A DNA stretch of 64,000 nucleotides from assembly GCA_964643725.1 (NCBI GenBank), contig CAZXTL010000002.1, positions 5,574 to 69,573 of the forward strand, in the 5' to 3' direction. Below the pieces are notes generated by a model. It made no database searches, was not told the origin of the DNA, and saw only the letters and a list, made by a program, of their open reading frames with translations. Position numbers and translations under genes: made by a program. Below are positions 38,239 to 59,300 of this stretch, piece after piece. Source of the stretch: an uncultured Candidatus Marinamargulisbacteria bacterium (lineage in GTDB: Bacteria > Margulisbacteria > Riflemargulisbacteria > GWF2-35-9 > DYQY01). The first letter of the stretch is position 1. The number at the start of each line of letters is the position of its first letter.

Positions 38239-38289
38239 CTTACAGCTAAAATATTATATAACGTTATACGACTTACTACAAGATTTCAT

Positions 38290-41113: not shown

Positions 41114-41748
41114 ATAGATTCGTACATATAAACCTTGGGAACTCCTGTCTCCCTTGGAACTAACCAATCAGAATTGTCTTGTAAGACATCCTCATATCTA
41201 TTAACTCTTAGAATAAGTCTGATTTTCCTAGGGTTCTCAATCAAACTATCCTTTATATTATTTAGCAATGCCCTTGCTTTATCGTGACTAAAAGGAAAAT
41301 ACAAATAAAAAATTGTTTCATTTGTAGGCTTATATGAAAGAATATCACCCTCAAACAATGTTGCTGACTCTAATTGACTCATAAACTTATTTATATTTTT
41401 ATTTGCTACATCCAAAACATTACCATCAACATCAACGCCAACTACATGCTTTAATCCAGCCAATATGGCCATCAGAAGAATTCTTCCCTTCCCACAACCT
41501 ATATCCACGAACACTTCCTTACTATTAATTAATCCTTCCTGCTTTAAAAACATAAAAAGCTGAGCCAACCTAATGTATGGTGTAGGCAAATAAAGCATAT
41601 CATCAGAGTCCATTTGCCTGTCTGGCATAATATAATCTTCATCGCCAGTATCTATTCCTAGACTTTTATCCCAGTCGTTATCAGAAATATCGCCCAAGCT
41701 CATATGTTGCAAAATATTCAATTCCATCGATATTAATTTAAAGTTCAT
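41110..41748 (-). CDS. Class I SAM-dependent methyltransferase, unknown substrate
   Basis: 212 aa; motif I VFVDIGCGKGR, post-I acidic D (GVDVD); convergent overlap with the cmoA stop. Confidence 0.7.
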   Translation of the reverse strand: MNFKLISMELNILQHMSLGDISDNDWDKSLGIDTGDEDYIMPDRQMDSDDMLYLPTPYIRLAQLFMFLKQEGLINSKEVFVDIGCGKGRILLMAILAGLKHVVGVDVDGNVLDVANKNINKFMSQLESATLFEGDILSYKPTNETIFYLYFPFSHDKARALLNNIKDSLIENPRKIRLILRVNRYEDVLQDNSDWLVPRETGVPKVYMYESI

Positions 41749-41817
41749 ATCAATTTATCGAAAGAACATTTCAAATTTCCTATATATTTAGAAATAATAA
41801 AATGATATATTTGAGAC

Positions 41818-43203
41818 ATGTCTATACTATTTATTTTCACACAAACAAACAAACCAAAGGACTACATTCAAACACACCCCCCTCTTGGAATTAGTTACTT
41901 AATCTCATACTTAAAAAGCAAAGGGCTATCACCATATGGAATTGACCTTTTAATAGATAAGGAAGAAACTATTTATAAAACTATTTCTGAAAAAAATATT
42001 GAATTCGTTTCTCTTTCAGTTTGCTTTGGAACAATCGAACACACAATCGAATTATCCAAAACCATAAAAACAAAATACCCTTATATTAAAATAATTTGGG
42101 GTGGCCCTCATGTTGAATTTTTATTAGATCATTTAAAACAAAGCTATCTAGACTATATTGTTTTTGGAGAAGGAGAAGAACCATTATATAAATTATTAAC
42201 TACTATAAATACCTATGATTTTAACCCTTATAGCATTCCAAACATTGCTTTTAACTATAACAATCAAATCCTTCAAACACCAAGAGAAAAGCCAACACAT
42301 ACACTAGACTCTCTTCCCTTTCCAGACAGAGAATGGGTTGACATCAAAAAGTATTTCAAACCACTCTCTCCAAAATCTTGCTATATTATCGGAAGTCGAT
42401 ATTGTCCCCACTCCTGTAGTTTTTGCATAAATTCTTGCAACAACAATCCATTTAGAGCTAGGTCTATTGCTAACATCATGGAAGAGGTAAGATTTATTAA
42501 AAAAAACTATCCTATGTATAAGCGATTTTCATTTGTTGATGAAACACTTAACCATTCAAAAGATAGATTAATCGAATTCTGTACTGCTATAAAAAAAGAA
42601 AACGTTGAGTGGCATAGTAATATCCGTGTTGATGACTATATGGCAGATAAAGAAATTATTAGTTTAATGAAATCTTCAGGCAACAATTTTATTGAAATTG
42701 GCATAGAAAGTGGTTCTCAGCTAATACTAAACATGAACAACAAAAACATTTCACTTGATAAGGTAAAGGAATTCTTATCCATCACAACCTCTCTTGATAT
42801 TCCTGTATTATGTAATTTCATGATGCCTCATTTTCAAGACACCCCAGAAACACTTAAACAAACTATAGATTTAATAATATTCATTTCATCTAATTATCTT
42901 ATTCTTCCTGCAACTCTAAGGACTATCGTTCTGCCAACCTTAAAAAATGAACAAATAATAAAAAAATATGGAATTTTCACCTCTAGTACAGGTGCAATAA
43001 TTAAAACAAATAGCATTCCTGATTATTTGATAAACACTTATTTAACTAAAGCAAATGAATGCAGGAAAAACAGTACAATGAGAAATGCCCATAAAATATT
43101 TCTATCTCAAGGATATGATGTTGCTGATGTAATGAAATCATTAAGCACAATGGACTTAAAAAATGACAAAGAACTTAATGATCTCATGTCTGCGTTTCTC
43201 TAA
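41818..43203 (+). CDS. B12-binding-domain radical SAM enzyme (class B rSAM, methyltransferase-like)
   Basis: 461 aa; N-terminal cobalamin-binding-like region ending …IIWGGPHVEF…; CxxxCxxC cluster motif GSRYCPHSCSFCIN. Confidence 0.8.
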   Translation: MSILFIFTQTNKPKDYIQTHPPLGISYLISYLKSKGLSPYGIDLLIDKEETIYKTISEKNIEFVSLSVCFGTIEHTIELSKTIKTKYPYIKIIWGGPHVEFLLDHLKQSYLDYIVFGEGEEPLYKLLTTINTYDFNPYSIPNIAFNYNNQILQTPREKPTHTLDSLPFPDREWVDIKKYFKPLSPKSCYIIGSRYCPHSCSFCINSCNNNPFRARSIANIMEEVRFIKKNYPMYKRFSFVDETLNHSKDRLIEFCTAIKKENVEWHSNIRVDDYMADKEIISLMKSSGNNFIEIGIESGSQLILNMNNKNISLDKVKEFLSITTSLDIPVLCNFMMPHFQDTPETLKQTIDLIIFISSNYLILPATLRTIVLPTLKNEQIIKKYGIFTSSTGAIIKTNSIPDYLINTYLTKANECRKNSTMRNAHKIFLSQGYDVADVMKSLSTMDLKNDKELNDLMSAFL

Positions 43204-44874: not shown

Positions 44875-45567
44875 ATGGCTAAACCAAACACAAATGTTGC
44901 AATTGATTTACAAAGAACTTTTTTTAACAGGGTATTTTCTTGGATGACACTTGGACTTTTGGCTACTGGAGTTACTTCCATGTATGTTGCGTCTTCGCCT
45001 GCACTAATCCAATTCTTCCTTGGCAACACAATTCTGTTTTTTGGACTCATTCTCTTAGAACTTTTTGCTGTTGGTTTTCTTGCAGCAAAAATAAACAGCA
45101 TGAGTGAACAACAAGCATCTATGCTCTTTATCGGCTACTCTATTCTTAATGGAATTACGTTATCAGGAATATTCCTTATGTATACTGGGGCTTCTATTGC
45201 TCTTGCTTTCTTTGTAACCGCAGGAACTTTTGCAACTATGACTGTTTATGGGTATACAACCAAAAGCGACCTATCAGAGATGGGAAAGCTAATGTTCATG
45301 GGGCTTATTGGTATAATAATTGCTAGTATAATTAATATTTTCTTAAAAAGTAGCGCAATGGACTATGTTATCTCTTATGTAGGCGTAGCAGTCTTTATTG
45401 GACTAACTGCTTGGGACGTTCAAAAATTAAAGTTGTTATCAGAAAATGCTTCAGCTGAGGAACACAACAATCTAGCAATATATGGAGCACTTACTCTGTA
45501 TATGGATTTTATCAATCTGTTTATTTTTATGCTAAGAATACTTGGCAATAGAAGTAGAGATTATTAA
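44875..45567 (+). CDS. Bax inhibitor-1 / YccA family membrane protein
   Basis: 230 aa with 7 TM segments; C-terminal family signature …AIYGALTLYMDFINLFIFMLRILG…. Confidence 0.85.
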   Translation: MAKPNTNVAIDLQRTFFNRVFSWMTLGLLATGVTSMYVASSPALIQFFLGNTILFFGLILLELFAVGFLAAKINSMSEQQASMLFIGYSILNGITLSGIFLMYTGASIALAFFVTAGTFATMTVYGYTTKSDLSEMGKLMFMGLIGIIIASIINIFLKSSAMDYVISYVGVAVFIGLTAWDVQKLKLLSENASAEEHNNLAIYGALTLYMDFINLFIFMLRILGNRSRDY

Positions 45568-45577
45568 AGGAGATATA

Positions 45578-46873
45578 ATGGGACAAACTATTACAGAGAA
45601 AATATTAGCAAAAGCTGCTGGAAAAGATAAAGTAGTACCAGGAGAAAATGTCTGGGTAAAAGTTGATGTACTTATGACCCACGATGTTTGCGGCCCAGCA
45701 ACTATCGGAATATTTGAGGAAAAATTTGGGAAGGATGCGGAAGTATTCGACAAAAATAATGTCGTAATAATTCCTGACCACTACATCCATACTTGTGATA
45801 CTAAATCACATAGAAATGTAGAAACCTTAAGAGAGTTTGTAAAAAAACACCATTTGCCATATTTCTATGATCCAGCTAATGAAACATATATGGGAGTATG
45901 TCACGTAACAATGCCAGAAAAAGGGCATGTTCGTCCTGGAGAAATAATTCTTGGCACGGATTCACATACTTGTACTCATGGAGCCTTAGGTGCATTTGCA
46001 ACAGGCGTTGGAAACACAGACGCTGCCTTTGCATTAGGTACAGGAAAAACTTGGTTAAAAGTTCCTGAAACGTGCAAGTTTATATTTAATGGTAAAATGC
46101 CAAAGAATCTTATGGCAAAAGACCTTATTCTTCACGTTATTGGTGATATTGGTGTAGATGGAGCAACTTACTGTGCAATGGAGTTTGAGGGCGATACTAT
46201 TGACGAACTTTCCATTGATGAAAGAATGACTATTTGTAATATGGCAATTGAAGCTGGTGGCAAAAACGGCATTATCGCTACTGACAAAAAAGCCAGTGAT
46301 TATGTGAAATCAAAAACTAATATTTCCTTTGAAGTATTTAAAAGTGATGCTGATGCAAAATATAAACTTGTAAAAACCTATGATGTATCAAAGCTTCAAC
46401 CATGTGTAGCTGCACCTCACTCTCCTGATAACAAAAAACTAGTTAGTGAGTGCAAAAATGTTGACATAACTCAAGCTTATATTGGCTCATGTACTGGCGG
46501 CAAAATCACCGACTTTATTGCAGCTGCTCAGATACTAAAAGGTAGAAAAGTTAAAGTAATAACCTACGTTGTCCCATCCACAACTTTTATAGAAAAGGAA
46601 ATGCATGAAACCAAAATTGACGGCAAATCCCTAATGCAAATATTTGCTGATGCTGGTTGCAAGATAGGACAACCATCATGTGCAGCTTGCTTAGGTGGGC
46701 CAGACGACACTTTTGGTCGTACACATAATGATGAAATAGTTATTTCTACAACTAACAGAAACTTCCCAGGAAGAATGGGTTCAATGAATTCTCAAGTATA
46801 CCTTGCTTCCCCTTACACAACAGCAGCAAGTGCTTTGACAGGTAAAATAACAGACCCTATAGAATTCTTATAG
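45578..46873 (+). CDS. leuC: 3-isopropylmalate / homoaconitate dehydratase large subunit (small-form LeuC/aconitase family)
   Basis: Aconitase cluster ligands (…GSCTGG…, …CAACLGGP…) and the LeuC N-terminus MGQTITEKILAKAAGKD. The ORF track starts at 45542. The ATG at 45578 follows an AAAGGAG RBS and avoids overlap with the upstream gene. Confidence 0.85.
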   Translation: MGQTITEKILAKAAGKDKVVPGENVWVKVDVLMTHDVCGPATIGIFEEKFGKDAEVFDKNNVVIIPDHYIHTCDTKSHRNVETLREFVKKHHLPYFYDPANETYMGVCHVTMPEKGHVRPGEIILGTDSHTCTHGALGAFATGVGNTDAAFALGTGKTWLKVPETCKFIFNGKMPKNLMAKDLILHVIGDIGVDGATYCAMEFEGDTIDELSIDERMTICNMAIEAGGKNGIIATDKKASDYVKSKTNISFEVFKSDADAKYKLVKTYDVSKLQPCVAAPHSPDNKKLVSECKNVDITQAYIGSCTGGKITDFIAAAQILKGRKVKVITYVVPSTTFIEKEMHETKIDGKSLMQIFADAGCKIGQPSCAACLGGPDDTFGRTHNDEIVISTTNRNFPGRMGSMNSQVYLASPYTTAASALTGKITDPIEFL

Positions 46874-46885
46874 AAAGGTAATAAC

Positions 46886-47440
46886 ATGAAAGAAAAAATA
46901 TCAGGTAAAGTTTACGTATTAGGAAATAATATTGATACAGACCAAATCATCCCTGCAAAATTCTTAAGCTATAACCCTTCCTTAAAAGAAGAAAGAAAAT
47001 ACTTTGGCAAATATGCACTAAGTGGCGTACCTGAAGGACAACAAGGGTTACCTTCCGGCAATAAACCATTTATTAAAGAAGGATTCAGCTCAGACTATAC
47101 TATCGTTATTGGTGGTGAAAACTTTGGTTGCGGTTCTTCTAGAGAACACGCACCACTAGCTTTAAATGAAGCTGGCGTTGAGGTTGTTATTGCTAATTCT
47201 TTTGCCAGGATATTTTATAGAAACTCAGTTAATGGTGGGTACATTATACCTTATGAGACTGCTCTTGAATTAAATAAATCATTTAACACAAATGACCAAG
47301 CTGAAATAGACATCACAAATAACACCATTAAAAATGTGACAACTGGAAAAAGTTATGCCTTAAAATCACTTGGCGGGATATTGCCTATACTTGAAGCAGG
47401 TGATATCTTTAAATATGCTAAAGAAAATAATATCAGCTAA
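46886..47440 (+). CDS. leuD: 3-isopropylmalate / homoaconitate dehydratase small subunit
   Basis: 184 aa; …[14 protein letters not shown]… LeuD swivel-domain signature. Confidence 0.88.
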
Positions 47441-47452
47441 AAGGAGATTACG

Positions 47453-47605
47453 ATGGGAACATGGATAATTAAGCTTCCGCTCTTACTAATTCTATTTATC
47501 TTAATTTTTCTTTTAATAGGCTGTATCAGACAAGACATAAAAGCTAAACGACCTTTTTTTCTTAAAATAACCAATAAAGATAAAGTAAATTCAGTAGAAA
47601 AATAA
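47453..47605 (+). CDS. Small (50 aa) lipoprotein-like peptide upstream of the YcaO pair
   Basis: Not in the ORF track (<60 aa). AAGGAG RBS at 47441-47446, 6 nt before ATG 47453. MGTWIIKLPLLLILFILIFLLIGCIRQDIKAKRPFFLKITNKDKVNSVEK: hydrophobic signal with LIGC lipobox and a basic 27-aa mature part. Confidence 0.45.
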   Translation: MGTWIIKLPLLLILFILIFLLIGCIRQDIKAKRPFFLKITNKDKVNSVEK

Positions 47606-47621
47606 CAAGGATACCTTTCTA

Positions 47622-49121
47622 ATGGTTGATTTTATACTCAAAGAAAATAATGATGGTCCTTTTGACTTAAAATCAACGCTAAAAACATATACATATGATC
47701 AAGATAAATACATCCATCCTCAAGTCACGTATGCAAAAACATACAGAAAAGTTAAAAGAAATGTAGAAAACGCCAAACTAATTATAATAACTGAAGAAAA
47801 GCCAGTATTTAGTTATGACTTTTCTAATGAGAAAATAACTACACATGGTAAAGGCGTAACAATGGAACAAGCCAAATCCAGTGCAATCATGGAATTTAGT
47901 GAAAGATATAGCTGGTTAAACTTTGACTATAAAAATGCTCCAGGATACATGGTAGCCTCCTTTAATGAACTGGCAGAACAAGAAGACATGTCATACATAG
48001 AACCTGGATTTGTTTTCCACAACTTCGAAAAATCTAAAGACTTTGAAGTTCACATAAAATCAATCCCCATAAAGTGGATAGACGGTTATTCTCTTACACA
48101 AAAAAAAACAATCAAATACCCTCTTAGTTGGATAAATTATATGCATGGCTCAAACGGTATCTGTACTGGAAACATAAAAGAAGAAGCTATTGTCCAAGGA
48201 ATATGTGAAGTTATTGAAAGAAATAATTGTAACAAATTTGTAAAAAATTATAAAAAAGAAAAGATAAATATTATCGATAACGAAAGTATTGAGCATGAAG
48301 GCTTTAAAGAAATGCTAGATTTCTTTAAAAAAGAACATACAGAGCTATATCTTCTCCATATTCCTACTGGATGTGACCTGCCAGTTATCATGGCTATTTG
48401 CATAAATGAGAAATTACAACCTCAAGTTCTTAGCCAAGGAATTGGTTATGGCTGTCATACAGACCCAGTAAAAGCTGTACTACGTGCTGTCACAGAATAT
48501 TTTCAGGCCAGAACTGGCATTATTGAGAAACAAAAAAAAGTACCATTTGACATGGCAATAGCTAAAAGTAATTCTATATTCAGCTTAGATTTAGACATAG
48601 ACTGGATTGTAAAAAACAATAAACTTATCCACATTAAAGATATAAAAAACCTTTCTTCAAATGATTTTAAAGAAGAAATTGAAACTCTTATTAATATTAC
48701 TAAACAAAGTGGGCTTGAAATTCTTATCGCAAGCAAAATGCACCCCAAACTTGAAATCCCCGTCTACCGAGTTTTTTCCCCTCAAGCAGAGCCACCAGTT
48801 AATTTATGTTCCAACTTTCATGTCCCAGAATACATAGTAGCTCAAATGTATTATGAAGCAGGAATGATTGATAAATCAGAAGAATTTATCCAAGAAAATC
48901 GTGAAAGAATATGCTGTTTTCCTTATTCGCTTTTTGATAATTTTGCTGCACCTATGTTTGGCGAAGAATTTTCAAATTTAGCAAAAAATACCATAAAAAG
49001 ATCTAAAATTAGTGCCGATCAAATTTGCAGGAAGGATTACTTATTACTCCATGTAAATGTTGCATCTGTTGGGAAAGACGCTGAAGATAATTTCAGAAGG
49101 TTTTCAAGTATTTTTAAATAA
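47622..49121 (+). CDS. ycaO: YcaO-domain protein (copy 1)
   Basis: 499 aa. YcaO ATP-binding signatures parallel E. coli YcaO: THGKGVTMEQAKSSAIMEFSERYS vs TNGKGATKKAALASALGEYFERLS, and SNGICTGNIKEEAIVQGICEVIERN vs SNGMSAGNTRNEARVQGLSEVFERY. Confidence 0.85.
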   Translation: MVDFILKENNDGPFDLKSTLKTYTYDQDKYIHPQVTYAKTYRKVKRNVENAKLIIITEEKPVFSYDFSNEKITTHGKGVTMEQAKSSAIMEFSERYSWLNFDYKNAPGYMVASFNELAEQEDMSYIEPGFVFHNFEKSKDFEVHIKSIPIKWIDGYSLTQKKTIKYPLSWINYMHGSNGICTGNIKEEAIVQGICEVIERNNCNKFVKNYKKEKINIIDNESIEHEGFKEMLDFFKKEHTELYLLHIPTGCDLPVIMAICINEKLQPQVLSQGIGYGCHTDPVKAVLRAVTEYFQARTGIIEKQKKVPFDMAIAKSNSIFSLDLDIDWIVKNNKLIHIKDIKNLSSNDFKEEIETLINITKQSGLEILIASKMHPKLEIPVYRVFSPQAEPPVNLCSNFHVPEYIVAQMYYEAGMIDKSEEFIQENRERICCFPYSLFDNFAAPMFGEEFSNLAKNTIKRSKISADQICRKDYLLLHVNVASVGKDAEDNFRRFSSIFK

Positions 49122-49141
49122 TTAAGAAAGGTTATCTTTTT

Positions 49142-50641
49142 GTGGTTGATTTTATACTCAAAGAAAATAATGATGGTCCTTTTGATTTAAAGTCTACTCA
49201 AAAGACATACACTTATGATCAAGATAAATTCATCCACCCTCAAATCACCTATGCAAAAACTTTTAATAAAGTAAAAAGATCAATAGAAAACACAAAACTA
49301 ATTACAATTTCTGAAGAAAGACCAGTATTTAGTTATGACTTCTCAAATGGAACAATAACTTCACACGGCAAAGGGTTAACCAAAGATCAAGCTAAGTCTA
49401 GTGCAATCATGGAATTCTGTGAAAGATATAGTTGGCTAAACTTTGACTATAAAAATGCTCCTGGATATATAGTAACCTCATTTAACGAACTTGCTAAAAA
49501 CGAAAATATGTCCTACATTGAACCTTGCTTTGTTTTCCATGGATTTGAAAGATCAAAAGACTTTGAACCTCACATAAAATCTATCCCTACAAAGTGGATA
49601 GACGGTTTTTCGCTAACAAATAACAAAATAATCAAATACCCTCTTAGTTGGATAAACTATATGCAAGGATCTAACGGAATATGTACTGGCAACATAAAAG
49701 AAGAAGCCATTGTCCAGGGAATCTGTGAAGTTATTGAAAGAAATAACTGTAATAAATTTATAGGAAACTATAAAAATGAAAAAATAAATATTATCGAAAA
49801 CGAAAGTATTGAACATGAAGGTTTTATAGAAATCCTAAATTTCTTAAAGAAAGAAAAAACGGAACTTTATCTTTTACATATCCCTACAGGATGCGACATG
49901 CCTGTTGTCATGGCTTATTGCATAAACGATAATTTCGAAGCTCATCTTAGACAAGTCATAGGTTATGGCTGTCATACAGACCCTACCAAAGCTGTATTTC
50001 GTGCTGTAACCGAATATTTCCAAGCCAGAACTGGACTTATTGAAAAACAAAAAAATGTACCACTTAGGAAGGCTTTGGCTAAAGGTAATTTCCTGTTTGT
50101 CTTAGATTTAGATATAGACTGGATTGTCAAAAACAATCGACATATCCCAATTAAGGATATAAAGGATATTTCTTCCAATGATTTTAAAGAAGAAATCAAT
50201 ACTCTTATCAACATCACTAAACAATACGGGATGGAAATTCTAATTGCCAGCAAAAACCATCCCAAACTTAATATCCCAGTCTATAAAGTTTTCTCCCCTC
50301 AAGCTGAACCACCTGTTAATTTATGTGCAAATGTTCATATTCCAGAGTGGATAATAGCTCAAATGTATTACGAAGCAGGCATGATTGATAAATCAGATGA
50401 CTTTATTCAAAAAAATAGAAATAAATTTTCAAGTTTTGATAATTCTGTTTTTGATAATTTTGCTGAACCAATATTTGGCAAAACTATTTCTGATTTAGCA
50501 AAGAAAGCAATAAAAACCATAAAAATTAACGCTGACATGTTATGTAAAAAAGATTACTTATTAGTTCTTGCCGATGTTGCAGCTGTTGATAAAAATGCAG
50601 AAGAAAATATCAAAAAATTCCATAAATTTCAATCTAGATAG
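49142..50641 (+). CDS. ycaO: YcaO-domain protein (copy 2, tandem paralog; GTG start)
   Basis: 499 aa, collinear and about 70% identical to copy 1 with the same YcaO motifs; its first ~45 nt are nearly identical at the DNA level; GTG start at 49142. Confidence 0.85.
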   Translation: MVDFILKENNDGPFDLKSTQKTYTYDQDKFIHPQITYAKTFNKVKRSIENTKLITISEERPVFSYDFSNGTITSHGKGLTKDQAKSSAIMEFCERYSWLNFDYKNAPGYIVTSFNELAKNENMSYIEPCFVFHGFERSKDFEPHIKSIPTKWIDGFSLTNNKIIKYPLSWINYMQGSNGICTGNIKEEAIVQGICEVIERNNCNKFIGNYKNEKINIIENESIEHEGFIEILNFLKKEKTELYLLHIPTGCDMPVVMAYCINDNFEAHLRQVIGYGCHTDPTKAVFRAVTEYFQARTGLIEKQKNVPLRKALAKGNFLFVLDLDIDWIVKNNRHIPIKDIKDISSNDFKEEINTLINITKQYGMEILIASKNHPKLNIPVYKVFSPQAEPPVNLCANVHIPEWIIAQMYYEAGMIDKSDDFIQKNRNKFSSFDNSVFDNFAEPIFGKTISDLAKKAIKTIKINADMLCKKDYLLVLADVAAVDKNAEENIKKFHKFQSR

Positions 50642-51737
50642 ACATTCCCTTTTTATGTTTACCCTTTAACCTAGAAATCACATCACCTTGATTATAATGA
50701 TCTAATTTAATTGGATCTGGGGTATCAACAATTTCCTCCACCATATCATCCTCTTCAACTAATATTTCTTCTTTTACAAAAACAACTTCATCTGGAATCT
50801 GCTCTTCTTGTACGTTTTTAAATTTATCTACTGAATCACTAACTTTTAAAATTTGCTTTTGTATTTTCTTTAAATCTGTTTGAATTACTTTCTGTATTCT
50901 GTTCTCTTCCTTATCCATATCTAATTTAAAATTACTTGCTTCCTCAACAACCTCAGACTTTTTAGAAATAACTTCTTCTTTAAATTCTATAGAATTCAAA
51001 TTTGCATATTTCTGAACATATTTAACAGCTTGCTTAACATTAACTCCCTCCATAGAAACTAATCCTTCATCACTCATGTCTTCTAGCCATTTTTGAATAT
51101 CCTGAGGAGAATAATCAGAACTAATAAACGGTCCCAACCTTTCAGTTAGCTCTTCCATTTTACTTTCCAACTCTTGCTTCCTTACACTAAGCTTATCCAA
51201 AATCTTCTGTAGACTATTTAACCCAACCTGTTTTATTTTATTATCTAAATCATCTGCCACTTCCATTTCTTGGCTAAGCTTACTTCGATCAACTTTTGCA
51301 ACTATCGCTTTATTAGACTTAACATTGCCACCTTGAAAATGTAAAATATCTTTAGTTTCTTTCCCTGCATTTTCGGCCAAAAAAAGATAATCTCTGACCT
51401 TAACTATCTTATTACTTTGAGGATATGCTTCAATCATCCCATCTAAAACAGGTATCGGATAATATGCCAAAACATTCATAAGTTCATTCGCACTTTTTGA
51501 TTCTTGTAAAACTTTCTTAAATGCTAAAACTATTTGCTCATTAAGATAAAAAACTTTATCATCATGAAACTTTAATTTATCTTGTTTATTAATTAACTTA
51601 GCAAGTTTACCTAAAGTTTGCATTTCTTGAATAGAATACCCACGTATTCCAGAAGCAATTTTTCTTAATACAAATTCGATAGCAAAATCAAAGTTTTGTC
51701 TTTGATCAAGATTAATTAAAATCTGGTCAATATTCAC
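50634..51737 (-). CDS. Hypothetical coiled-coil/acidic protein (367 aa), last gene of the giant-protein operon
   Basis: No recognisable domain; its stop overlaps the ycaO2 stop by 8 nt (convergent); its start overlaps the stop of the upstream 524-aa gene. Confidence 0.55.
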   Translation of the reverse strand: MNIDQILINLDQRQNFDFAIEFVLRKIASGIRGYSIQEMQTLGKLAKLINKQDKLKFHDDKVFYLNEQIVLAFKKVLQESKSANELMNVLAYYPIPVLDGMIEAYPQSNKIVKVRDYLFLAENAGKETKDILHFQGGNVKSNKAIVAKVDRSKLSQEMEVADDLDNKIKQVGLNSLQKILDKLSVRKQELESKMEELTERLGPFISSDYSPQDIQKWLEDMSDEGLVSMEGVNVKQAVKYVQKYANLNSIEFKEEVISKKSEVVEEASNFKLDMDKEENRIQKVIQTDLKKIQKQILKVSDSVDKFKNVQEEQIPDEVVFVKEEILVEEDDMVEEIVDTPDPIKLDHYNQGDVISRLKGKHKKGMSI

Positions 51738-53311
51738 TAATTAGCCTCCGCTATCATCTTCTCAACCAATCCACTTTCAAGTAATCTCTCAATAGACTTA
51801 TTCATTGCTATCTGAAAATATTCTGGGACGTTATCATCATCCATAAAATCTGGTTTTTCTACTTTACCTTGTCTTTCTAATTCATCCATCTCATTATAAA
51901 CTTCTTCTGATATCTTTCTGAAAAGAACCGTCTCTTCTTCCTTATACTTCTCTACTACTTTTTCAGAAAGTTCAAAATCCTTGATTGCCTTATTGATTGC
52001 CTGTGGATCAATCTCTCCAATCTGAAACCCTGGAATAGCAAGAAGCGATTCAGCTAATTCAGGGTTATACTTCCTAACATAATTCATAGGATCTAAAGAA
52101 ATTATTGATAATATTCGTTTATGTTGTTCTAAACTCAAAGGGATAACATATCTCATCGTTACTTCTATGAAGATATCAGCCCTCTCTGCTATGAACTGGT
52201 CTTCACGTAATTCAATGTACTTTACTAAGTTTATACTATCAAGTGGCGTCATTAATACAGCATTTTCTAAAAACATTTCACAGTTATTATCTAACAAATA
52301 CTGTTTAACCGACTCATAACTATATACCTCTGCCTCTCTACATTGTTCATCTACTGACTTAAGATCAGAGAAGGTCTTCAATTCATCAGCAAGCTCTTTT
52401 AGTCTATTTATCACATTGTGCTTTTTACACATTTTTTTTAACAACTCTTGAAATAAACTAGAGTTAAAAGCCTTATTCTGGCTTAAGTTTCTAAAATCAA
52501 TATTTGTTAAAACACTCTGCATATTTAACTGATCATCTTCCATAGAATTATCACGAACCGATAAAATAAATGCAATAATTTGTTCTAAAGATTTCCTTTC
52601 CTCTAAATCCTTAACAGAGGACACCCTACTCTTGATATCCTCAATTTCTATAAATAAATCAGACATAAACTGCTCTGCATTATATACACTAAAATAAATA
52701 TCATTTTGATCACTATAAGGAACAAATACTTTCCTCTCTACATCTCTCCACCCAACCATATCAGTATCTGCAATCATTACCAGCTTATTGTAAAAAACGA
52801 TAAAGTCTTTCTCATCAATATAGGGATTTACTTCATAAACTCCCTTCATGTTATCCATAATTCTCATTAATGCTGCGAAATCATTTGGATTTCTAATAAC
52901 TCTTGTCTGTACCCACTCTCCTTTAATTATGAGAGTCATACTAATAACACTATCCATAACAACTTCCACTTTATACAAATAATCTTGTATTGTGAATTCA
53001 AAAATATCACCATCATGTTTTGGATTAAAAGAGAATTCAGACATATCATCTAAGTACTTATTAATAACCTCTTCTGGATATTCTCCTGTATCTTTTGCAG
53101 CTAATGAAATATCTAAAAAATCCTTCATAAGTTTATATAACTTCTGCCCTTGAAACGATTCTACGTGCGCTTCTCTAAAATCTACTACAGGCACATGTTC
53201 TACTGTGGATTTTGTATTGATTCCTAAAGAATGTTCAATCATAAAGTTTAACTCATCGGCTATTCTTAAAGCTTTTTGCATTCTTTTCTTTATATACTGT
53301 TCTTGATCCAT
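51737..53311 (-). CDS. Hypothetical protein (524 aa), middle gene of the giant-protein operon
   Basis: No recognisable domain; 1-nt gap from the giant ORF stop and 1-nt overlap with the downstream gene, suggesting translational coupling. Confidence 0.55.
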   Translation of the reverse strand: MDQEQYIKKRMQKALRIADELNFMIEHSLGINTKSTVEHVPVVDFREAHVESFQGQKLYKLMKDFLDISLAAKDTGEYPEEVINKYLDDMSEFSFNPKHDGDIFEFTIQDYLYKVEVVMDSVISMTLIIKGEWVQTRVIRNPNDFAALMRIMDNMKGVYEVNPYIDEKDFIVFYNKLVMIADTDMVGWRDVERKVFVPYSDQNDIYFSVYNAEQFMSDLFIEIEDIKSRVSSVKDLEERKSLEQIIAFILSVRDNSMEDDQLNMQSVLTNIDFRNLSQNKAFNSSLFQELLKKMCKKHNVINRLKELADELKTFSDLKSVDEQCREAEVYSYESVKQYLLDNNCEMFLENAVLMTPLDSINLVKYIELREDQFIAERADIFIEVTMRYVIPLSLEQHKRILSIISLDPMNYVRKYNPELAESLLAIPGFQIGEIDPQAINKAIKDFELSEKVVEKYKEEETVLFRKISEEVYNEMDELERQGKVEKPDFMDDDNVPEYFQIAMNKSIERLLESGLVEKMIAEAN

Positions 53312-53312: not shown

Positions 53313-56300
53313 TTATTTCCTTACTCCATCAGCTTCATTAAGTCCACTTAAAATAAGCTCATTTCCGCGCTTAAGAATTGTTGTTCCTTTGCTTAATGAG
53401 CTCTCCACTCTTTCCCTTAATCTATCCCTTGTTTCCTTTGACAAATATCCAACAGCTTGACCCACCGCATCGCCTAAGGTAGGCAAAGATATTATAAGAT
53501 ACTCTAATGTACTATCATAGCTTTCCCTAAGTTTAGCTAAACCTAATCTTGCCTCATTAGAATTTTGAGCTAACTTAGCTTCATACAAAGCCAATATCTT
53601 TAGAGCTGCAACAAACTTTTCTTGAGGATCGTTATTGCTATTAATAAAACTTTCAATTAACTCCTTAACCATTACTTCACCTTTATTATTTAAAACTAAT
53701 AAACTATTTACATTTGATGAAAAAGGTTGAAACGTATCTTGTCCCCACGAACTTAACTTTAAGTATGCTGTTATATACTCCTGTAAATAACTGCTGACTT
53801 TCTCATTATCAATTAAGGCTGGGCTCTTCTCAAGTTGCCTCAGCACAGACTTAACTGCTTCATTTCTTAAGTCTTTTGACAATACCTCTATAGGCAGATT
53901 ACTTATTAACAAATCTGTACCTAAAGGCCTAATTGATGCTGTTGCTGATTCCAGAGGATTTACTCGATTGCTATTCGTTATTATTCTTCTTAAATCTGAA
54001 AAGTTTTGAAGGAATATTTGGCTAGTTGCTCCTTCTTTCACAGGCAAATTTAATCTTGAAATAACATTGGAAACTATACTTATTTGCTTTTGCTGTGACT
54101 CTTTCCTTACTGATAAAATCATTAGTGGAATAATTTCCTTGGCTACATCCTGTTCAAGTTGACCTGAAGAAATTAGCACATCAATTAATGCCAATGACTT
54201 ACTCACAACGATCTCAGAATCCAAAGATGACATCTTCTTTATTACATCACAAATATTTTTAACAAAACTACTTTTCTCTTTATCAGAAAGCTTCATGCTT
54301 ACCACGATTTGCTCTGCCAAATCAACAAACTGCTCAAGGTCTTGAATCGCTGTCTCTTGAGTAATATACCCTAGAATCACAGATCTGTTATCCTCAGAAA
54401 TTTGAGGACTTTTTAGAATATAATTTAAAATTTTCTCAGGTGACTTAAGCAAAATCAATTCTTTGATTTTCTCTTCTGGAGTACTCTGACTGCTTAATAC
54501 CTCCGCTATCTTCTGCTCTTTTCCTATAGTCATTTGTGCATTACTAATAAGGCTACTTAATGAGCTAAGTTTTTCAGAAAGAGTTTTCTTCTGAGATATA
54601 GTTAATTTTGATAAATTAACATCTTTTGATAAAGTATCAATTGTCTTTTGTAATTCATCATAGTCCAAAGACTTGCTGTCCTTAAATTTATTCAATTCAG
54701 TTTTTAAATCTGTACTAATCGATATTACTCCTAGCTTAACAATAACTTCAATATTCTCAACAATGTATCTTGTTTTATTAGTATAATTTTTATCAATTGC
54801 TTCATAAATATTATCAAGCAACTTGAGGACTCCTGAGACATTTTTTGCAATAATATCCTCAGGATTGAGTCCACCTTGTCCCTTTTCTGGGATAAAATTA
54901 TCTGACACTATATTCTCAACATTTGCTTGTATTTGTTGGTACTGATTAGCAACATTAACTGCTGGCAATTGGTTAATATTAAATTGTTCTGCTATTACTT
55001 TAATGACCTTAGTTTTCTCTAAAACATTCTCTTCATCTTTACCTATATTCAAAGAAGTAAATGGAATAGAAAGAGCCATATTTATTATCTTATTTATTTC
55101 TTTCTCACTTCTGGGTATGGGGCTATATTTAATAAGCTCAAAAATATCAGGCATCTTTTCCTTGACTGACTCTTCTTTAATTGTGTCACTAGTAACCAAT
55201 TTCTCTAATAAACCCATCGCCTTAATTAATGCCTTATCTGCCTTATCTGTTGGCACTTGAGCTACTGCAAGCAACAACTCTTCTACTATCTGGATATGAT
55301 CCATTTTCTTAGCTATATCCTCCAAAATATCCATAGCTAATATTTGGAACTCAGCTTCATCTTTAATTTTGACCCTATCTTCTTGCAACAGATAACGAAT
55401 TAGTGCCTTACTGTTCTCTCTGCTAACTATCTGATCATTGAGCACCACAGAATTCTCTGTAACATATCGGACAACAGCGATTGGATTATCTAATGCTATT
55501 AACTTTTCTAACTTATCCTTAGCAGTAATATCACCACTGAAAATGTTAGACAACTGTCCATCTTTGCTCTTTGTAAGGCTTATTGTTTCCAGAGTAGTCT
55601 TAAGTGCAACTAGTGATTCTTGTAACTGAACCTTAATCTTAGGATCTTTTTCAGCTTTACTTAATTCTTTCAAAACCTCAACAACTTCCAATAATTTATT
55701 AATACTATCCTTACTCTTCAAATCACCTTTCCCAACCTCTATTATAAGTTTATTAAGTTGAGGAGATATAGGTAGCTGTTGCTGTATTTGTTCTAAAGAT
55801 TGTACTACTTTGCTAACTGCTTGTGTCTCTTCCTTGGCAACTTGTTCAACATTCTTCTTGCTATTATCTATAAAAGGAGAGTAAAAAGCCTCAATAACTT
55901 TCTGAATATTCTCCAATGATTGCAAGGTTGTAGTCTGCGTCTTCCTCACGATTTCTGATAACATTCCAGCATCTGTCTGCTTGGCTTTTGCTACTTGAGT
56001 ATCGATACCTTTGTTATCAATATTAATATTATTAATAACAGGAATCGTCGCATTTGATGATATCGCCACCGACGCGGCTGATTGTATCGTAGGATCTTCT
56101 TGTTTATTTGTTTGAATCTCTTGTGCATTTAACTGCTCAGAATTCTTTCTAATCTCAAGTACCTTTGCGTCATCAAGTCTTGCCCCAATTGTCTGAGATA
56201 ATACCTCATTAGGTTGCATTATTGGCTGTACCCTTCCCTGAACAGGAGTGGTAGGTGACACCACTGCTGGAGCTGCATCATTTATTGTTGTATCTTCTTG

Positions 56301-59300
56301 CTTTTTGGTTTGAACATCGTTAACTTTTAACTTCTCTAGCTTCAAATTTATCTCTGGCATTTGTTGGGAAATCATCTTTATAACAGATGTTTGAGCTAGA
56401 ACTTCCTTTGACTTATTAATATTGTCTAAAATGCTTGGATCAGACAATATGGCTAACATAACATTCAAAACTTCTTGATCCTTACGAGGCTTTGGGTTTT
56501 CCTTAAGAGCTTGAACTAATTGAGGAACTTGTTTCTTAACATCATCTGCCTTAACGATATCCTCTCTAACCATCTCTTCAAGTAAGACTATCCCTTTAAC
56601 TAACATCTGCTCAGATTTATTTTTTGACATCACTATTACTGATGATAGTTCTTTTACTATCTGCTCTTTTGAGATTACGCTACCCATATCTTTAAGTGCA
56701 TCCTTTACCAATACATTAAACTCATCAACATCCTTTGGTTTAACCTTATCTTCTTGTAATACATAACTCATCAATGCCTTTCGATTATTCTCACCAAACA
56801 ATGGTTCTTTCATTACAACAGGATTTTCCTTTACATATCTAACTACTGCGATTGGATTATTTATCGAATTTAAAAGTTCTATCTTTTCCTCAGGTGGTGC
56901 TGTGCTATTAAATATCTTCGCTAAGGCTCCATCCTTACTCTTCGTAAGACTTATTGTCTCTAGAGTTGTCTTTAGTTCAGTAAGAGCTTCTTGTATCTGA
57001 ACCTTTATCTTAGGATCCTTTTCAGACTTACTTAGTTCTTTTAATACCTCTACTACTTCCAATAATTTATTCATACTATCCTTACTCTTCAAATCACCTT
57101 TACTAATCTGAGTAATAAGTTCTGAGGAGATAGGCATTTGTTGTTTTATTTGTTCGAGAGATTTCACAATCTCCTTCACTGCTTCTTTTTCTTCCTTGTC
57201 AATTTGGGCTGAATCCCTTTTGCTCTTATCTACAAATGGATCATGAAAAGAATCTATTATCTGCTGTATAGAAGCTATTGCTAGCATTGTTGAAGGCTCT
57301 GTTACTTTTGGCCCTTCCCCTGCCATTGTCTGTTTTGCTTGAGCTACAACTGGAACGCTATTAACTTTTTGTGTCTGATTATTACTAACAGGTGAAACTG
57401 TAGCTCCTTGTGCTGCTGCTCCTGCTTGAACAGTTGTATCCTCGGAAGTATCCTCTGCCAGACTTTGTACAGTTGCCTGCAACTGAGCATCATTTCTCCT
57501 GTTTTTATTTTCTGTATCCAAAGATATCTTGCCGTCCTCAAAAATAGCTTGATCCTTGTGTTCTAAATTTACTTTAGCTCCTACAACCTCAAATCCACTA
57601 GTAGCGAGTGATGATTCTGCCTTCTTCATCTGCAAGGTTGTCAGCACACTACTTTCAGCATTATTTTGCCCTTGAGTAAGAGCAATATCATCCAAAACTT
57701 TCAGACCCTCAGCAGAAAAATCTATTCGATGTGTTCTTTTGTCAGTAGGAGTCGTAAATTCTGCGGAAATATGAGCCGGACTATTAGCATTAGAGTCTTT
57801 AGTAATAACAAACTGATAATTATCAATATTAAGTTCTTTAGCAATAGCTGCCATTAAAGCAATTATTCTATCGCAATCATTTTCATCTATTTCATATTTC
57901 TCTTTACTAAATTGAGTAAGTTTATCAACAATCTTTGCACGTACTGCTTGCATGTCTACTTTTCCATCTATTATAGAAGAGGTAACAGCTTCATTAACTG
58001 CCTTTTTAGCCTCATCAGCCAATGAGCTTTGGTTAATAACAGTTACATTTTTACTTTTCAAAAATATATTTTGAACCGCAAATGTAGTTAACGCTGTTAC
58101 TATTTGATTGCGTGTTAGTGGATCTGAAGCTGCTTTAGGCCCTGCCTTGTCAACCGCTCCAGGAACAACCTTAGTCTTAGCTATATCTCCAAACGCCTCT
58201 CTAATTGGTCCTTGGAGTGCCTCTCTCACTTGCGAAATAGAAAGGGCTGAACCTAAAACATCCAATGCCTGATTTATTACTGCTTGAAGCGCTACAGTTG
58301 GGTTACTGTTTATCCCTGCATTAATAGCTGAAAATCCAGAATTGCCAGCCCCGGATGACGTGCCCGCTTGTACTCCTTGTAAAACCTCATAGACCTTTGC
58401 TCTTTGCGAAATAGCATCGCTAATAAGTTTTTTAAGTAACATACTAGTTATTTCTGAATTAAATGACTTAAGTTTATCTTGAGCATCAAAAATGCCTGGT
58501 TCCTCTTTACCTGCGACAGAATCTATCTTTTGGTTAACGTCCTTTGGTGTTGCATTTGGTGCTGCATTTGGTGCTGCGTTTGGTGCTGCATTTGCTACTG
58601 CGTCTGTTACCGCTGGCGCTGCATTTGCTACTGCATCTGTTACCGCTGGCGCTGCTGTTGCGACTGCATCTGTTACCGCTGGTGCTGCATTTGCCACTGC
58701 TTCTGTTACTGCTGGTGCTGCTGTTGCGGTTGCGTCTGCTACTGCTGGTGCTGCTGTTGATAAAGCATCTGTTACTGCTACAGCTGCTGTTGCGACAGCG
58801 TTTCCTACTGTTACTGCGACATCTGCTAGCGCGCCTAGAATCCCGCCACCTCCTCCAGATGTTGCTGGTGCTGCTTTTGCTGGTGCTGGTGCAGATTGCG
58901 CTGCTGGTTTTGTTTCTGCTTTTGTTTCTGGTTTTGCGGCTGTTGCTTGTGCTTTATCCACAGATGTTGCTGATTGACCTTTAGTGCTCGGATCGTTGTA
59001 CTTTGCCTTTGCAATATCTATAAGAGCAGCTAAAACTAAATTCGCCATACTATCAAACATCGTTTTCATTCTCTCTGACATTTGTAAGGCAAAAGCAGAA
59101 TCTTCACTTGCAGCAGCATTACTTTGTATCTTACGTGATAAAGCATCACCAGAATTACCTGTACCAAAAGCCTTCTCGGCTTTAGCTTCCGCGTTAGCTC
59201 TAAATTCTTCTCTCGCTTTTTTCTCTACATAATAAGTCAAATATTCTTTTATTAAGTTTCTTATTAGATTCATTAAAATACTTGTTACTTTGGTACTTAA

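What the first reader, a model, noticed from the sequence alone, without database searches (positions are those of the whole stretch)
47441..50641. Tandem paralogous YcaO-domain genes preceded by a 50-aa lipoprotein-like peptide ORF
Two collinear 499-aa YcaO proteins, about 70% identical, sit back to back. Both keep the ATP-binding SxxxExxER-type motif. Duplicated YcaO genes are unusual.

They resemble E. coli-type YcaO (which assists RimO on ribosomal protein S12) more than TOMM cyclodehydratases. No E1-like/dehydrogenase partner or TfuA is adjacent.

Immediately upstream, with a strong AAGGAG RBS and a 6-nt spacer, is an unannotated 50-codon ORF. It encodes a signal/lipobox (LIGC) peptide with a basic tail. 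This could be a substrate or precursor for YcaO-mediated backbone modification (thioamide or amidine; no Cys needed), or simply a small lipoprotein.

The trio follows leuD with only a 12-nt gap, so it is probably co-transcribed with leuCD.
Basis: partly seen in the sequence, partly recalled or inferred. Interest (0 to 1): 0.7.

Follow-up and report, generated by a model that had tools for sequence, protein, structure and literature searches.

The report
Tandem standalone YcaO enzymes, unrelated small gene
Two intact partner-less YcaO enzymes of an uncharacterised Margulisbacteria clade sit in tandem, but the small gene upstream is an independent membrane-peptide gene rather than their dedicated substrate, and the more consistent neighbours are a giant membrane-protein operon and a B12-radical SAM enzyme.

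Summary
The window has a 50-codon ORF (47453-47605) and two 499-aa YcaO genes (47622-49121, 49142-50641). The YcaOs are 76% identical and both keep every ATP/Mg2+ motif residue.

- By sequence the enzymes are not E. coli-type. They score 47 and 38 bits against a cutoff of 700. They sit nearer the cyanobactin-heterocyclase and methanogen thioamidation YcaOs, in an uncharacterised clade centred on Margulisbacteria.
- The duplication is old and both copies are retained. They differ mainly in a C-terminal helical domain.
- The small ORF is a real gene (dN/dS about 0.1). However, it keeps the same position after leuD in genomes that have no YcaO pair there, and it is absent from every other family locus. 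Its charge pattern fits an N-out/C-in membrane anchor better than a lipoprotein.

The recurring neighbours are a giant transglutaminase-like membrane-protein operon and a B12-radical SAM gene. In a sister genome YcaOs bracket the giant operon on both sides. The B12-rSAM is absent where the pair is absent.

Best reading: standalone YcaOs that modify a genome-encoded protein, probably by backbone thioamidation. The substrate is unproven. No E1-like, dehydrogenase or TfuA partner occurs in the 64 kb.

The parts
47622..49121 (+). YcaO-A, 499 aa. Standalone YcaO with an N-terminal ~75 aa, the YcaO domain (76-390) and a C-terminal all-helical domain (~400-499).
   Evidence: Pfam PF02624 E 4.6e-55. 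NCBIfam hits are all below cutoff. AF2 model has pLDDT 83 and pTM 0.85. Foldseek matches LynD, EcYcaO, MusD and MjYcaO. Motif residues are intact. It belongs to the A-type orthologue group.
49142..50641 (+). YcaO-B, 499 aa with a GTG start. It is a paralogue 76% identical to A: 80% in the core but only 58% in the C-terminal domain.
   Evidence: It is orthologous to the FIRST gene of the pair in L006 and L008; the signal lies in the C-terminal domain, at 66-72% identity. Its stop overlaps the end of the convergent 367-aa gene by 8 nt.
47453..47605 (+). Small ORF of 50 aa. Its layout is a short N-tail, a 16-residue hydrophobic segment, an invariant Gly-Cys and a conserved basic tail (QD.KAKRPFFL.I). 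It is most likely a small single-pass membrane protein and is independent of the YcaOs.
   Evidence: Only five homologue clusters exist, at 65-94% identity. dN/dS is 0.06-0.14. It is present after leuD without YcaOs in L016-L020. The N flank has net charge -1 to +1 and the C flank +3 to +4. No Pfam or NCBIfam family matches.
47441..47446 (+). AAGGAG ribosome-binding site, 6 nt upstream of the small ORF's ATG.
   Evidence: Read directly from the sequence. Equivalent AGGAG sites are present in L008 and L006.
44875..47440 (+). Upstream genes of the probable operon: Bax1-I family membrane protein (44875-45567), LeuC/HacA-family large subunit (45542 or 45578 to 46873) and LeuD-family small subunit (46886-47440).
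   Evidence: Pfam and NCBIfam. The same order is found in L006, L008 and L016. No terminator-like site lies downstream of 45203.
41818..43203 (+). Class B (B12-binding) radical SAM enzyme of 461 aa, inserted between cmoA (40409-41113) and a cmoB-like gene (43209-44042). It is a candidate functional partner of the YcaOs.
   Evidence: It gives generic B12-rSAM hits with none above cutoff, while CmoA is above cutoff. It is present in the window and L006 and absent in L016, which also lacks the YcaO pair. Homologous B12-rSAMs lie immediately next to the single YcaO in L001 and L012.
50634..53311 (-). Two genes of unknown function (367 aa and 524 aa), convergent on YcaO-B and downstream of the giant gene.
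   Evidence: No Pfam or NCBIfam hit. They are conserved with the giant gene in L006, L008 and L016-L019. Both are acidic and have no hydrophobic segment.
53313..64000 (-). Giant gene whose frame stays open to the window edge (at least 3561 aa). It has an N-terminal transglutaminase-like core, about 9-10 hydrophobic segments between aa 600 and 1740, and a long helical, low-complexity C-terminal part. It is the leading but unproven candidate partner or substrate of the YcaO family.
   Evidence: The frame is open to 64000. Transglut_core E 1e-12. Hydrophobic segments. It aligns from residue 113 of the L071 giant. Homologous giant genes sit divergently beside family YcaOs in L001, L004, L023, L024 and L071.

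Best explanation
The locus encodes two anciently duplicated, catalytically intact, partner-less YcaO enzymes. YcaOs are ATP-dependent activators of backbone amide carbonyls. These two belong to an uncharacterised clade centred on Margulisbacteria.

Each protein carries a C-terminal helical, TPR-like domain. In E. coli YcaO the equivalent domain mediates dimerisation and perhaps substrate docking. That domain is where the two paralogues differ most. I therefore infer that they work as two specificities, or as a heteromer, on a genome-encoded protein rather than on a classical RiPP precursor.

By analogy with the two known protein-modifying YcaOs (methanogen YcaO on McrA, E. coli YcaO on uL16), the most likely product is a backbone thioamide. 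A class B radical SAM enzyme probably acts on the same target. The leading candidate target is a product of the adjacent giant transglutaminase-like membrane-protein operon.

The 50-aa ORF is a genuine, separately conserved small membrane-protein gene that ends the leuCD operon. It is not the YcaOs' dedicated substrate.

Shown: enzyme identity, intact motifs, age of the duplication, independence of the small ORF, and the recurrent neighbours. Inferred: the chemistry, the hetero-oligomer or dual-specificity idea, and the substrate.
For: Enzyme identity:
- Full-length YcaO domain in both proteins.
- A confident model whose only strong structural matches are YcaO enzymes.
- All ATP/Mg2+ motif residues are invariant in both copies and across about 40 relatives, including methanogen YcaOs.

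No canonical partner:
- No TfuA by tblastn across the window.
- No E1-like, TfuA or dehydrogenase among the ORFs scanned.

Family and duplication:
- The family is small and Margulisbacteria-centred.
- The duplication predates the split of the window, L006 and L008 genomes.
- Paralogues diverge in the C-terminal domain: 58% there against 80% in the core.
- Independent tandem amplification occurred in L011, which has four copies.

Small ORF independence:
- Same position and intact tail in L016-L020 with no YcaO adjacent.
- Absent from all other family loci.

Neighbours:
- Giant gene (-) then YcaO (+), divergent, is conserved in L001, L004, L023, L024 and L071.
- The L006 genome has the A/B pair at the 3' end and a third YcaO at the 5' end of the same giant operon.
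- A B12-rSAM is operonic with the YcaO in L001 and L012, and it co-varies in presence with the pair across the window, L006 and L016.

Precedent:
- Standalone, TfuA-less protein thioamidation, and the role of the TPR domain (PMC13063428).
Against: - No chemistry was measured. By sequence the proteins are at least as close to azoline-forming heterocyclases (MusD, LynD, TruD) as to thioamide-forming YcaOs.
- The giant / YcaO / amylase-like arrangement is part of a longer syntenic block that also holds unrelated housekeeping genes. Adjacency may therefore reflect slow rearrangement rather than function.
- L021 (sister of the A/B clade), L011 and L012 are not adjacent to a giant-gene homologue.
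- The B12-rSAM co-variation rests on one presence/absence contrast.
- The window's B12-rSAM is 4.4 kb away, separated from the YcaOs by unrelated genes.
- The YcaOs are not acidic (pI 6.2 and 7.2), so there is no electrostatic pointer to a substrate.
- If the small peptide's basic tail is cytoplasmic, as I infer, it stays physically accessible to a YcaO.
Confidence: 0.5

Rival explanations
1. The 50-aa ORF is the precursor or substrate peptide, and the two YcaOs modify its backbone (thioamide, amidine or azoline). Together they would form a minimal RiPP-like cluster.
For: - The ORF is immediately upstream and probably co-transcribed, with a strong RBS.
- It is kept next to the pair in the window, L006, L008 and the P0002/P0058 contig.
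- Its best-conserved part is the basic tail, which is predicted to be cytoplasmic.
- Two standalone YcaOs plus a B12-rSAM loosely recall bottromycin biosynthesis (own knowledge).
Against: - The peptide is conserved at the same position with no adjacent YcaO in two lineages, L016/L017 and L018-L020.
- It is absent next to every other family member, including L021, the sister of the A/B clade.
- It is under uniform strong purifying selection, with no hypervariable core.
- Only one conserved Cys exists, and no conserved Ser/Thr, for azoline chemistry.
- No RRE, protease or exporter gene is nearby.
- The hydrophobic segment looks like a membrane anchor.
Confidence: 0.1
2. The YcaOs, with the B12-radical SAM, modify an unlinked housekeeping protein, as E. 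coli YcaO does with uL16 and methanogen YcaO does with McrA. Their position beside the giant operon and leuCD would then be only inherited synteny.
For: - Both known protein-modifying YcaOs are encoded away from their substrate genes (PMC13063428; own knowledge for McrA).
- Contexts of L021, L011, L025-L037 are housekeeping and variable.
- The conserved block around the giant-adjacent YcaO also carries amylase-like, PolyA_pol and ArsP genes.
Against: - Three family paralogues in one genome all flank the same operon.
- The divergent giant/YcaO arrangement survives down to 32-42% YcaO identity.
- The enzymes evolve as fast as accessory genes: 69-79% identity between genomes where LeuCD is 87-95% identical. 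That does not fit a highly conserved housekeeping substrate, following the argument in PMC13063428.
Confidence: 0.25
3. The pair is a recent, functionally redundant duplicate, or one copy is decaying, and has no special significance.
For: The paralogues are 76% identical. Their first ~45 nt are nearly identical at the DNA level, which suggests some gene conversion.
Against: - Both orthologue groups are retained in three genomes.
- All catalytic motifs are intact in both.
- Both are full length with no frameshifts.
- Divergence is concentrated in one domain rather than spread evenly.
Confidence: 0.05

Closest known systems
E. coli YcaO (uL16 Met82 thioamidase, formerly called the 'RimO/S12 accessory factor'; NF040716)
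   Same: Both are standalone enzymes with no TfuA and no RiPP cluster. Both consist of a YcaO domain followed by a C-terminal helical (TPR-type) domain. Foldseek aligns about 600 columns, including that region. The ATP-binding motifs are the same.
   Different: - Sequence similarity is the weakest of all solved YcaOs (E 1e-6).
- HMM scores are 47 and 38 bits against a cutoff of 700.
- pI is 6.2/7.2, not 4.4 (PMC13063428).
- The C-terminal domain is about 100 aa rather than 150 aa.
- The phylum differs, and here the genes are duplicated in tandem.
Methanogen McrA-glycine thioamidation YcaO (TIGR03266; M. jannaschii MJ1094, M. kandleri YcaO)
   Same: This is the best NCBIfam hit (135/123 bits). 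The whole target structure is covered (TMt 0.70-0.75). It acts on a protein substrate. Some methanogen homologues work without TfuA in sulfidic habitats (PMC13063428).
   Different: The score is far below the equivalog cutoff of 365. The window proteins have an extra C-terminal domain of ~110 aa. No MCR context is present. Methanogen sequences fall outside the clade in the tree.
Cyanobactin/TOMM azoline-forming cyclodehydratases (LynD, TruD, MusD; TIGR03604)
   Same: Their YcaO domains are the closest solved sequences (E 8e-19 to 6e-16) and the top Foldseek hits.
   Different: Those enzymes are fused to, or partnered with, an E1-like/RRE domain, and they act on Cys/Ser/Thr-rich cores. Here there is no such domain or partner, the score is 94 bits against a cutoff of 219, and no suitable precursor exists.
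Bottromycin-type clusters (two standalone YcaOs plus class B radical SAM methyltransferases); comparison from my own knowledge
   Same: Two partner-less YcaO paralogues occur in one locus, with a B12-radical SAM in the neighbourhood.
   Different: The other tailoring genes (hydrolases, P450, O-methyltransferase, exporter) are missing. The B12-rSAM is not operonic in the window. The candidate peptide is a membrane anchor that is conserved without the enzymes.
TPR-fused YcaO proteins (for example Desulforegula conservatrix P0029); function unknown
   Same: They are the next-nearest sequence tier (26-29% identity). They share the YcaO plus C-terminal helical-repeat architecture and housekeeping contexts.
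   Different: They carry explicit multi-repeat TPR domains detectable by Pfam. They are single-copy, with no giant gene or B12-rSAM nearby.

Membership tests
YcaO superfamily (PF02624 / TIGR00702) | Full-length match to the YcaO domain model above the curated cutoff | tested here: met
   PF02624 scores 187.7 and 179.8 bits against a cutoff of 25.7, covering profile positions 2-325 of 325. TIGR00702 scores 100.1 and 93.2 bits against 75.65.
YcaO superfamily (PF02624 / TIGR00702) | ATP/Mg2+-binding motifs SxxxExxER, ExxER and RxxxE | tested here: met
   S87, E91, E94, R95, E196, E199, R200, R288 and E292 are present in A and B and are invariant in the family.
YcaO superfamily (PF02624 / TIGR00702) | YcaO fold | tested here: met
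   The AF2 model (pLDDT 83) matches LynD, EcYcaO, MusD, MjYcaO, MkYcaO and McbD at E 1e-18 to 1e-8.
E. coli-type YcaO (uL16 thioamidase; NF040716 YcaO_for_S12) | Equivalog HMM score above cutoff | tested here: not met
   46.7 and 38.3 bits against a cutoff of 700.
E. coli-type YcaO (uL16 thioamidase; NF040716 YcaO_for_S12) | Strongly acidic enzyme (pI about 4.4) complementary to basic uL16 | tested here: not met
   pI is 6.16 (A) and 7.16 (B). The criterion comes from PMC13063428.
E. coli-type YcaO (uL16 thioamidase; NF040716 YcaO_for_S12) | C-terminal TPR dimerisation domain of about 150 residues | tested here: inconclusive
   An all-helical region of about 100 residues is modelled at 400-499 with mixed confidence. 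Foldseek extends the alignment to EcYcaO over about 600 columns, but at rmsd 11-13 A. Pfam gives no TPR hit.
Methanogen McrA thioamidation YcaO (TIGR03266 methan_mark_1) | Equivalog HMM score above cutoff | tested here: not met
   135.2 and 123.1 bits against a cutoff of 365.
TfuA-associated thioamidating YcaO | Adjacent or fused TfuA | tested here: not met
   tblastn with the TfuA-fused P0050 matched only the YcaO portion anywhere in the 64 kb. No TfuA appears in the contexts of relatives.
TOMM / azoline-forming cyclodehydratase (TIGR03604 SagD family) | Subfamily HMM score above cutoff | tested here: not met
   93.9 and 93.3 bits against a cutoff of 219.25.
TOMM / azoline-forming cyclodehydratase (TIGR03604 SagD family) | E1-like/Ocin-ThiF (RRE) partner or fusion, and usually an FMN dehydrogenase | tested here: not met
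   Neither protein carries such a domain. None was found among the neighbours scanned between 23 and 64 kb.
TOMM / azoline-forming cyclodehydratase (TIGR03604 SagD family) | Adjacent precursor with a Cys/Ser/Thr-rich core | tested here: not met
   The only adjacent small ORF has one conserved Cys and no conserved Ser/Thr.
Bottromycin-like cluster | Two standalone YcaOs plus B12-rSAM methyltransferases plus a precursor with an N-terminal core and follower peptide plus hydrolase/P450 tailoring genes | tested here: not met
   Two standalone YcaOs and one B12-rSAM 4.4 kb away are present. No further tailoring genes are present. The peptide is conserved independently of the enzymes.
Bacterial lipoprotein (for the 50-aa ORF) | Lipobox [LVI][ASTVI][GAS]C after a hydrophobic segment | tested here: met
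   The window has LIGC. Homologues have LIGC, FIGC or FVGC, and Gly-Cys is invariant.
Bacterial lipoprotein (for the 50-aa ORF) | Positively charged n-region and an early mature region that permits export | tested here: not met
   N-region net charge is +1 in the window but 0 or -1 in P0059-P0061. The 15 residues after the Cys carry +3 to +4. By the positive-inside rule (established knowledge) this predicts N-out/C-in. No dedicated signal-peptide predictor was available.

The most novel reading that the evidence does not exclude
A set of paralogous standalone YcaO enzymes brackets a giant transglutaminase-like membrane-protein operon, with two at its 3' end and one at its 5' end. Together with a class B radical SAM enzyme, they post-translationally modify a product of that operon by backbone thioamidation and possibly C-methylation. 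This would be a third class of protein substrate for YcaO enzymes, after McrA and uL16. It would also be the first in a giant envelope protein and the first in the Margulisbacteria/Cyanobacteria lineage.
Probability: 0.15. Interest if true: 0.75.

Novelty: new variant of a known kind. Interest (0 to 1): 0.45.

Why it matters
YcaO enzymes perform rare backbone chemistry: azolines, thioamides and amidines. Only two protein substrates are known, McrA and, since 2026, ribosomal uL16. The authors of the uL16 work state that more protein substrates remain undiscovered (PMC13063428).

This locus defines a compact, uncharacterised, partner-less YcaO clade in an uncultured phylum. Paralogues in it have been amplified repeatedly and retained, and it has a concrete, testable candidate partner set: a giant membrane-protein operon and a B12-radical SAM.

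It also shows why a short ORF next to a YcaO should not be called a RiPP precursor from adjacency alone. Here comparative genomics separates the two.

Tried and rejected
- **E. coli-type assignment:** rejected on HMM scores, PDB ranking and pI.
- **Small ORF as a conserved partner:** searched 5.8 billion proteins with a profile and ran relaxed tblastn against 73 loci. The only hits were in the leuD-linked clade. A weak hit beside the Desulforegula YcaO (E 0.3) is not an open frame. L021 has no credible small ORF.
- **Flanking methyltransferases as YcaO partners:** rejected. One is CmoA, above cutoff, and the other is CmoB-like, so both are tRNA-modification genes.
- **Third YcaO at the window edge:** the giant ORF runs off the window. 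No L023-type homologue maps to the window's 181-kb contig. This stays unresolved for this organism.
- **First genome scan with the single sequence:** found nothing. The alignment-based scan worked.
- **Giant-operon annotation:** Pfam, NCBIfam and PDB sequence searches gave only Transglut_core.
- **Saganbacteria L032 large genes next to a family YcaO:** not detectably homologous to the window's giant.
- **Self-BLAST for internal repeats in the giant protein:** returned nothing usable.
- **Not run:** I did not use the 1.84-billion-protein profile search or a second structure prediction. Context look-ups were exhausted, so neither could have changed the verdict.

Full report
**1. What is in the sequence**

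The coordinates are correct. A 50-codon ORF lies at 47453-47605, and two 499-codon ORFs lie at 47622-49121 (ATG start) and 49142-50641 (GTG start). All are on the + strand.
- The small ORF follows the leuD stop by 12 nt. AAGGAG precedes it at 47441-47446 with a 6-nt spacer.
- Both large proteins match the Pfam YcaO domain end to end, with E 4.6e-55 and 1.1e-52.
- They are 76% identical.
- The three nucleotide-binding motifs are present in both: S87-x3-E91-x2-E94-R95, E196-x2-E199-R200 and R288-x3-E292. They are invariant in about 40 relatives, including methanogen YcaOs.
- No terminator-like hairpin lies between leuD and the end of YcaO-B. The gaps are 12, 16 and 20 nt. One transcript running Bax1-I, leuC, leuD, small ORF, YcaO-A, YcaO-B is therefore plausible. 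This is an inference.

**2. What kind of YcaO**

The E. coli-type model (NF040716) scores only 47 and 38 bits against a cutoff of 700. The best NCBIfam hits are the methanogen McrA-thioamidation model (135 and 123 bits, cutoff 365) and TOMM SagD (94 and 93 bits, cutoff 219). Neither reaches its cutoff.

Against solved structures by sequence, the order is MusD, LynD, TruD (E 8e-19 to 6e-16), then MJ1094, then M. kandleri YcaO. E. coli YcaO is last at 1e-6.

An AlphaFold2 model built on 20 family sequences is confident (pLDDT 83, pTM 0.85). It shows an all-helical extension at about residues 400-499. Foldseek finds only YcaO enzymes. E. coli YcaO aligns over the longest span, about 600 columns at high rmsd, because it also has a C-terminal helical TPR domain.

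These are standalone enzymes made of a YcaO domain plus a helical tail. The functional label has also moved on. E. coli YcaO is now shown to thioamidate ribosomal protein uL16 directly, without TfuA, and its TPR domain mediates dimerisation (PMC13063428).

No TfuA is encoded anywhere in the window. The ORFs I scanned between 23 and 64 kb hold no E1-like/ThiF or FMN-dehydrogenase gene. They include:
- an aminotransferase, a Fic protein, purH/N/M, ribF and truB;
- cmoA, a B12-radical SAM and a cmoB-like gene;
- Bax1-I and leuCD;
- two unknown genes and a giant gene.

The stretch 34718-40239 was not scanned directly. I read it as infB, nusA and comEC from synteny with L016 and L006.

**3. The family and the duplication**

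A search of 5.8 billion proteins returned only about 25 close relatives. Those that carry a name are Candidatus Margulisbacteria. The next tier is TPR-fused YcaOs.

A scan of species-representative genomes placed relatives in several groups:
- Marinamargulisbacteria, Termititenax, Riflemargulisbacteria and Saganbacteria;
- a few Deltaproteobacteria and Aminicenantes MAGs.

In neighbour-joining trees the window's two proteins fall into two orthologue groups shared with L006 and L008, so the duplication predates those genomes. The orthology signal lies in the C-terminal domain:
- A and B are 80-81% identical in the N-terminal part and the core, but 58% identical in residues 391-499.
- B keeps 66-72% identity there with the first gene of the pair in L006 and L008. 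The gene order is therefore swapped in the window.

A separate amplification produced four tandem copies in L011. Retention of diverged copies, with the divergence focused on the domain that in E. coli YcaO handles dimerisation or docking, suggests two specificities or a heteromer. This is an inference.

**4. The small ORF**

It is a real gene.
- Five homologue clusters exist at 65-94% identity.
- dN/dS is 0.06-0.14, with synonymous sites near saturation.
- The RBS is conserved.

It is not tied to the YcaOs.
- In L016/L017 and L018-L020 it sits in the same place after leuD with an intact tail (CIRQDIKAKRPFFLRIKDK). Its stop abuts the convergent 359-aa gene, and no YcaO is present there.
- No family locus outside this narrow leuD-linked clade has a similar peptide. 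That includes L021, the sister of the A/B clade.

Its lipoprotein reading is doubtful. Gly-Cys is invariant, but the N-terminal flank has net charge 0 or -1 in three homologues, while the 15 residues after the Cys carry +3 to +4. By the positive-inside rule this predicts an N-out/C-in anchor with a cytoplasmic basic tail.

That topology leaves the tail accessible to cytoplasmic enzymes. I therefore keep about 10% for the precursor model.

**5. What does recur next to these YcaOs**

*Giant gene.*
- The window's giant ORF starts at 53313 on the minus strand and stays open to the window edge, giving at least 3561 aa.
- It has a transglutaminase-like core (E 1e-12) and about 9-10 hydrophobic segments.
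- It is homologous to giant genes that lie divergently beside the single family YcaO in L001/L022, L004, L023, L024 and L071.
- L016 and L023 overlap at 100% identity. That Termititenax genome therefore has the small ORF at one end of the giant operon and one YcaO at the other end.
- L071 and L006 are contigs of the same assembly. That genome has the A/B pair at the 3' end and a third YcaO at the 5' end of the giant operon.
- The window's giant aligns from residue 113 of the L071 protein. Its start is therefore about 340 nt past the window edge, and I cannot see whether a third YcaO follows.

*Class B radical SAM.*
- Orthologous copies, 42% identical to each other, are operonic with the YcaO in L001 and L012.
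- In the window and L006 a B12-rSAM is inserted between cmoA and the cmoB-like gene. In L016, which lacks the A/B pair, cmoA and the cmoB-like gene are adjacent.

*Caveats.*
- The giant / YcaO / amylase-like block also carries unrelated housekeeping genes.
- L021, L011 and L012 are not next to a giant-gene homologue.
- The co-variation rests on a single contrast.

**6. Mechanism**

Shown:
- two intact YcaO ATP-binding catalysts;
- no canonical azoline or TfuA partner among the genes scanned;
- ancient retained paralogy;
- a small ORF that is independent of the pair.

Inferred:
- The enzymes activate a backbone amide of a genome-encoded protein. Thioamidation is the most likely outcome, because both known protein-directed YcaOs do this and TfuA-less examples exist (PMC13063428).
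- Related genomes come from settings whose sample names suggest anoxic or sulfidic conditions (a 'SulCav' isolate label and a groundwater metagenome). I infer that free sulfide may be available there.
- The giant-operon products are the leading candidates. An unlinked protein is nearly as likely, and the small peptide is unlikely.

**7. Novelty and score**

The enzymes belong to a well-known superfamily, but to a clade with no characterised member. Public names are generic or automatic ('YcaO-like family protein', 'S12 methylthiotransferase accessory factor'). No paper in the searchable library links YcaO and Margulisbacteria.

I class it as a new variant of a known kind. The finding as written (enzyme pair plus precursor) is weaker than it looked. 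The replacement lead (YcaOs around a giant membrane-protein operon, with a B12-rSAM) is interesting but circumstantial. Interest is 0.45.

Noticed in passing
window 53313-64000 (-), with 50634-53311 (-): A giant gene of at least 3561 aa runs off the window edge. It has a transglutaminase-like core and about 9-10 hydrophobic segments. Two unannotatable acidic proteins (524 and 367 aa) follow it. The operon is conserved across Margulisbacteria, and its first ~1600 residues are 54-56% identical to the L023, L024 and L071 giants. Function is unknown.
   Followed up: partly
window 41110-43203: A B12-binding radical SAM gene (+) and a 212-aa methyltransferase-like gene (-) are inserted between cmoA and a cmoB-like gene. 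L006 has the rSAM only, and L016 has neither. Presence of the rSAM tracks presence of the YcaO pair.
   Followed up: partly
L006 9491-9641 and L008 5939-6113 (gap between the two YcaO genes): A conserved element of ~50 nt (…AAAGAGATGATATCTTTTAAAGACTA.AAATAAA.CAACAAAA…) contains a short palindrome. It is shared by L006 and L008, but the window's gap is only 20 nt and lacks it. The short ORFs that start in it lose register after 12 codons, so it looks like conserved DNA or RNA rather than a peptide.
   Followed up: no
L011 3628-8719: Four family YcaO genes lie in tandem downstream of a glycogen phosphorylase gene. One is N-terminally short and the last is cut by the contig end. This amplification is independent of the one in the window's clade.
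   Followed up: partly
window 47622-50641 compared with L006 8001-11137 and L008 4449-7609: The order of the two paralogue types is swapped. The window's second gene is orthologous to the first gene in L006 and L008. The first ~45 nt of the window's two genes are almost identical, which suggests gene conversion at the 5' ends.
   Followed up: partly
window 45542-45578: The mechanical leuC ORF starts at a TTG that overlaps the Bax1-I gene, giving 443 aa. Relatives are called at 431 aa, which corresponds to the ATG at 45578 (MGQTITEK…). That is probably the true start.
   Followed up: no
L021 7606-11494; window 45542-50641: The A/B-type YcaO lies downstream of leucine-pathway-type genes in two distant lineages: leuCD in the window clade, and an isopropylmalate/isocitrate dehydrogenase plus a cation-efflux gene in Marinamargulisbacteria. 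This may be coincidence.
   Followed up: no
L032 1-9962: In a Saganbacteria MAG a family YcaO is also divergent from two very large genes (974 aa and at least 2241 aa). Neither has a Pfam hit or detectable similarity to the window's giant protein.
   Followed up: partly
window 20686-20795 (-), 22786-22862 (-), 25487-26596 (-): An L10 leader RNA (Rfam, 54 bits) and tRNA-Trp lie within the rplKAJL-rpoBC region. A Fic/DUF4172 protein gene lies among housekeeping genes.
   Followed up: no
L071 15883-16335: A rhodanese (sulfurtransferase) gene lies 7 kb downstream of the giant-adjacent YcaO in the L006 genome. It could be relevant to sulfur delivery, or it could be coincidental.
   Followed up: no
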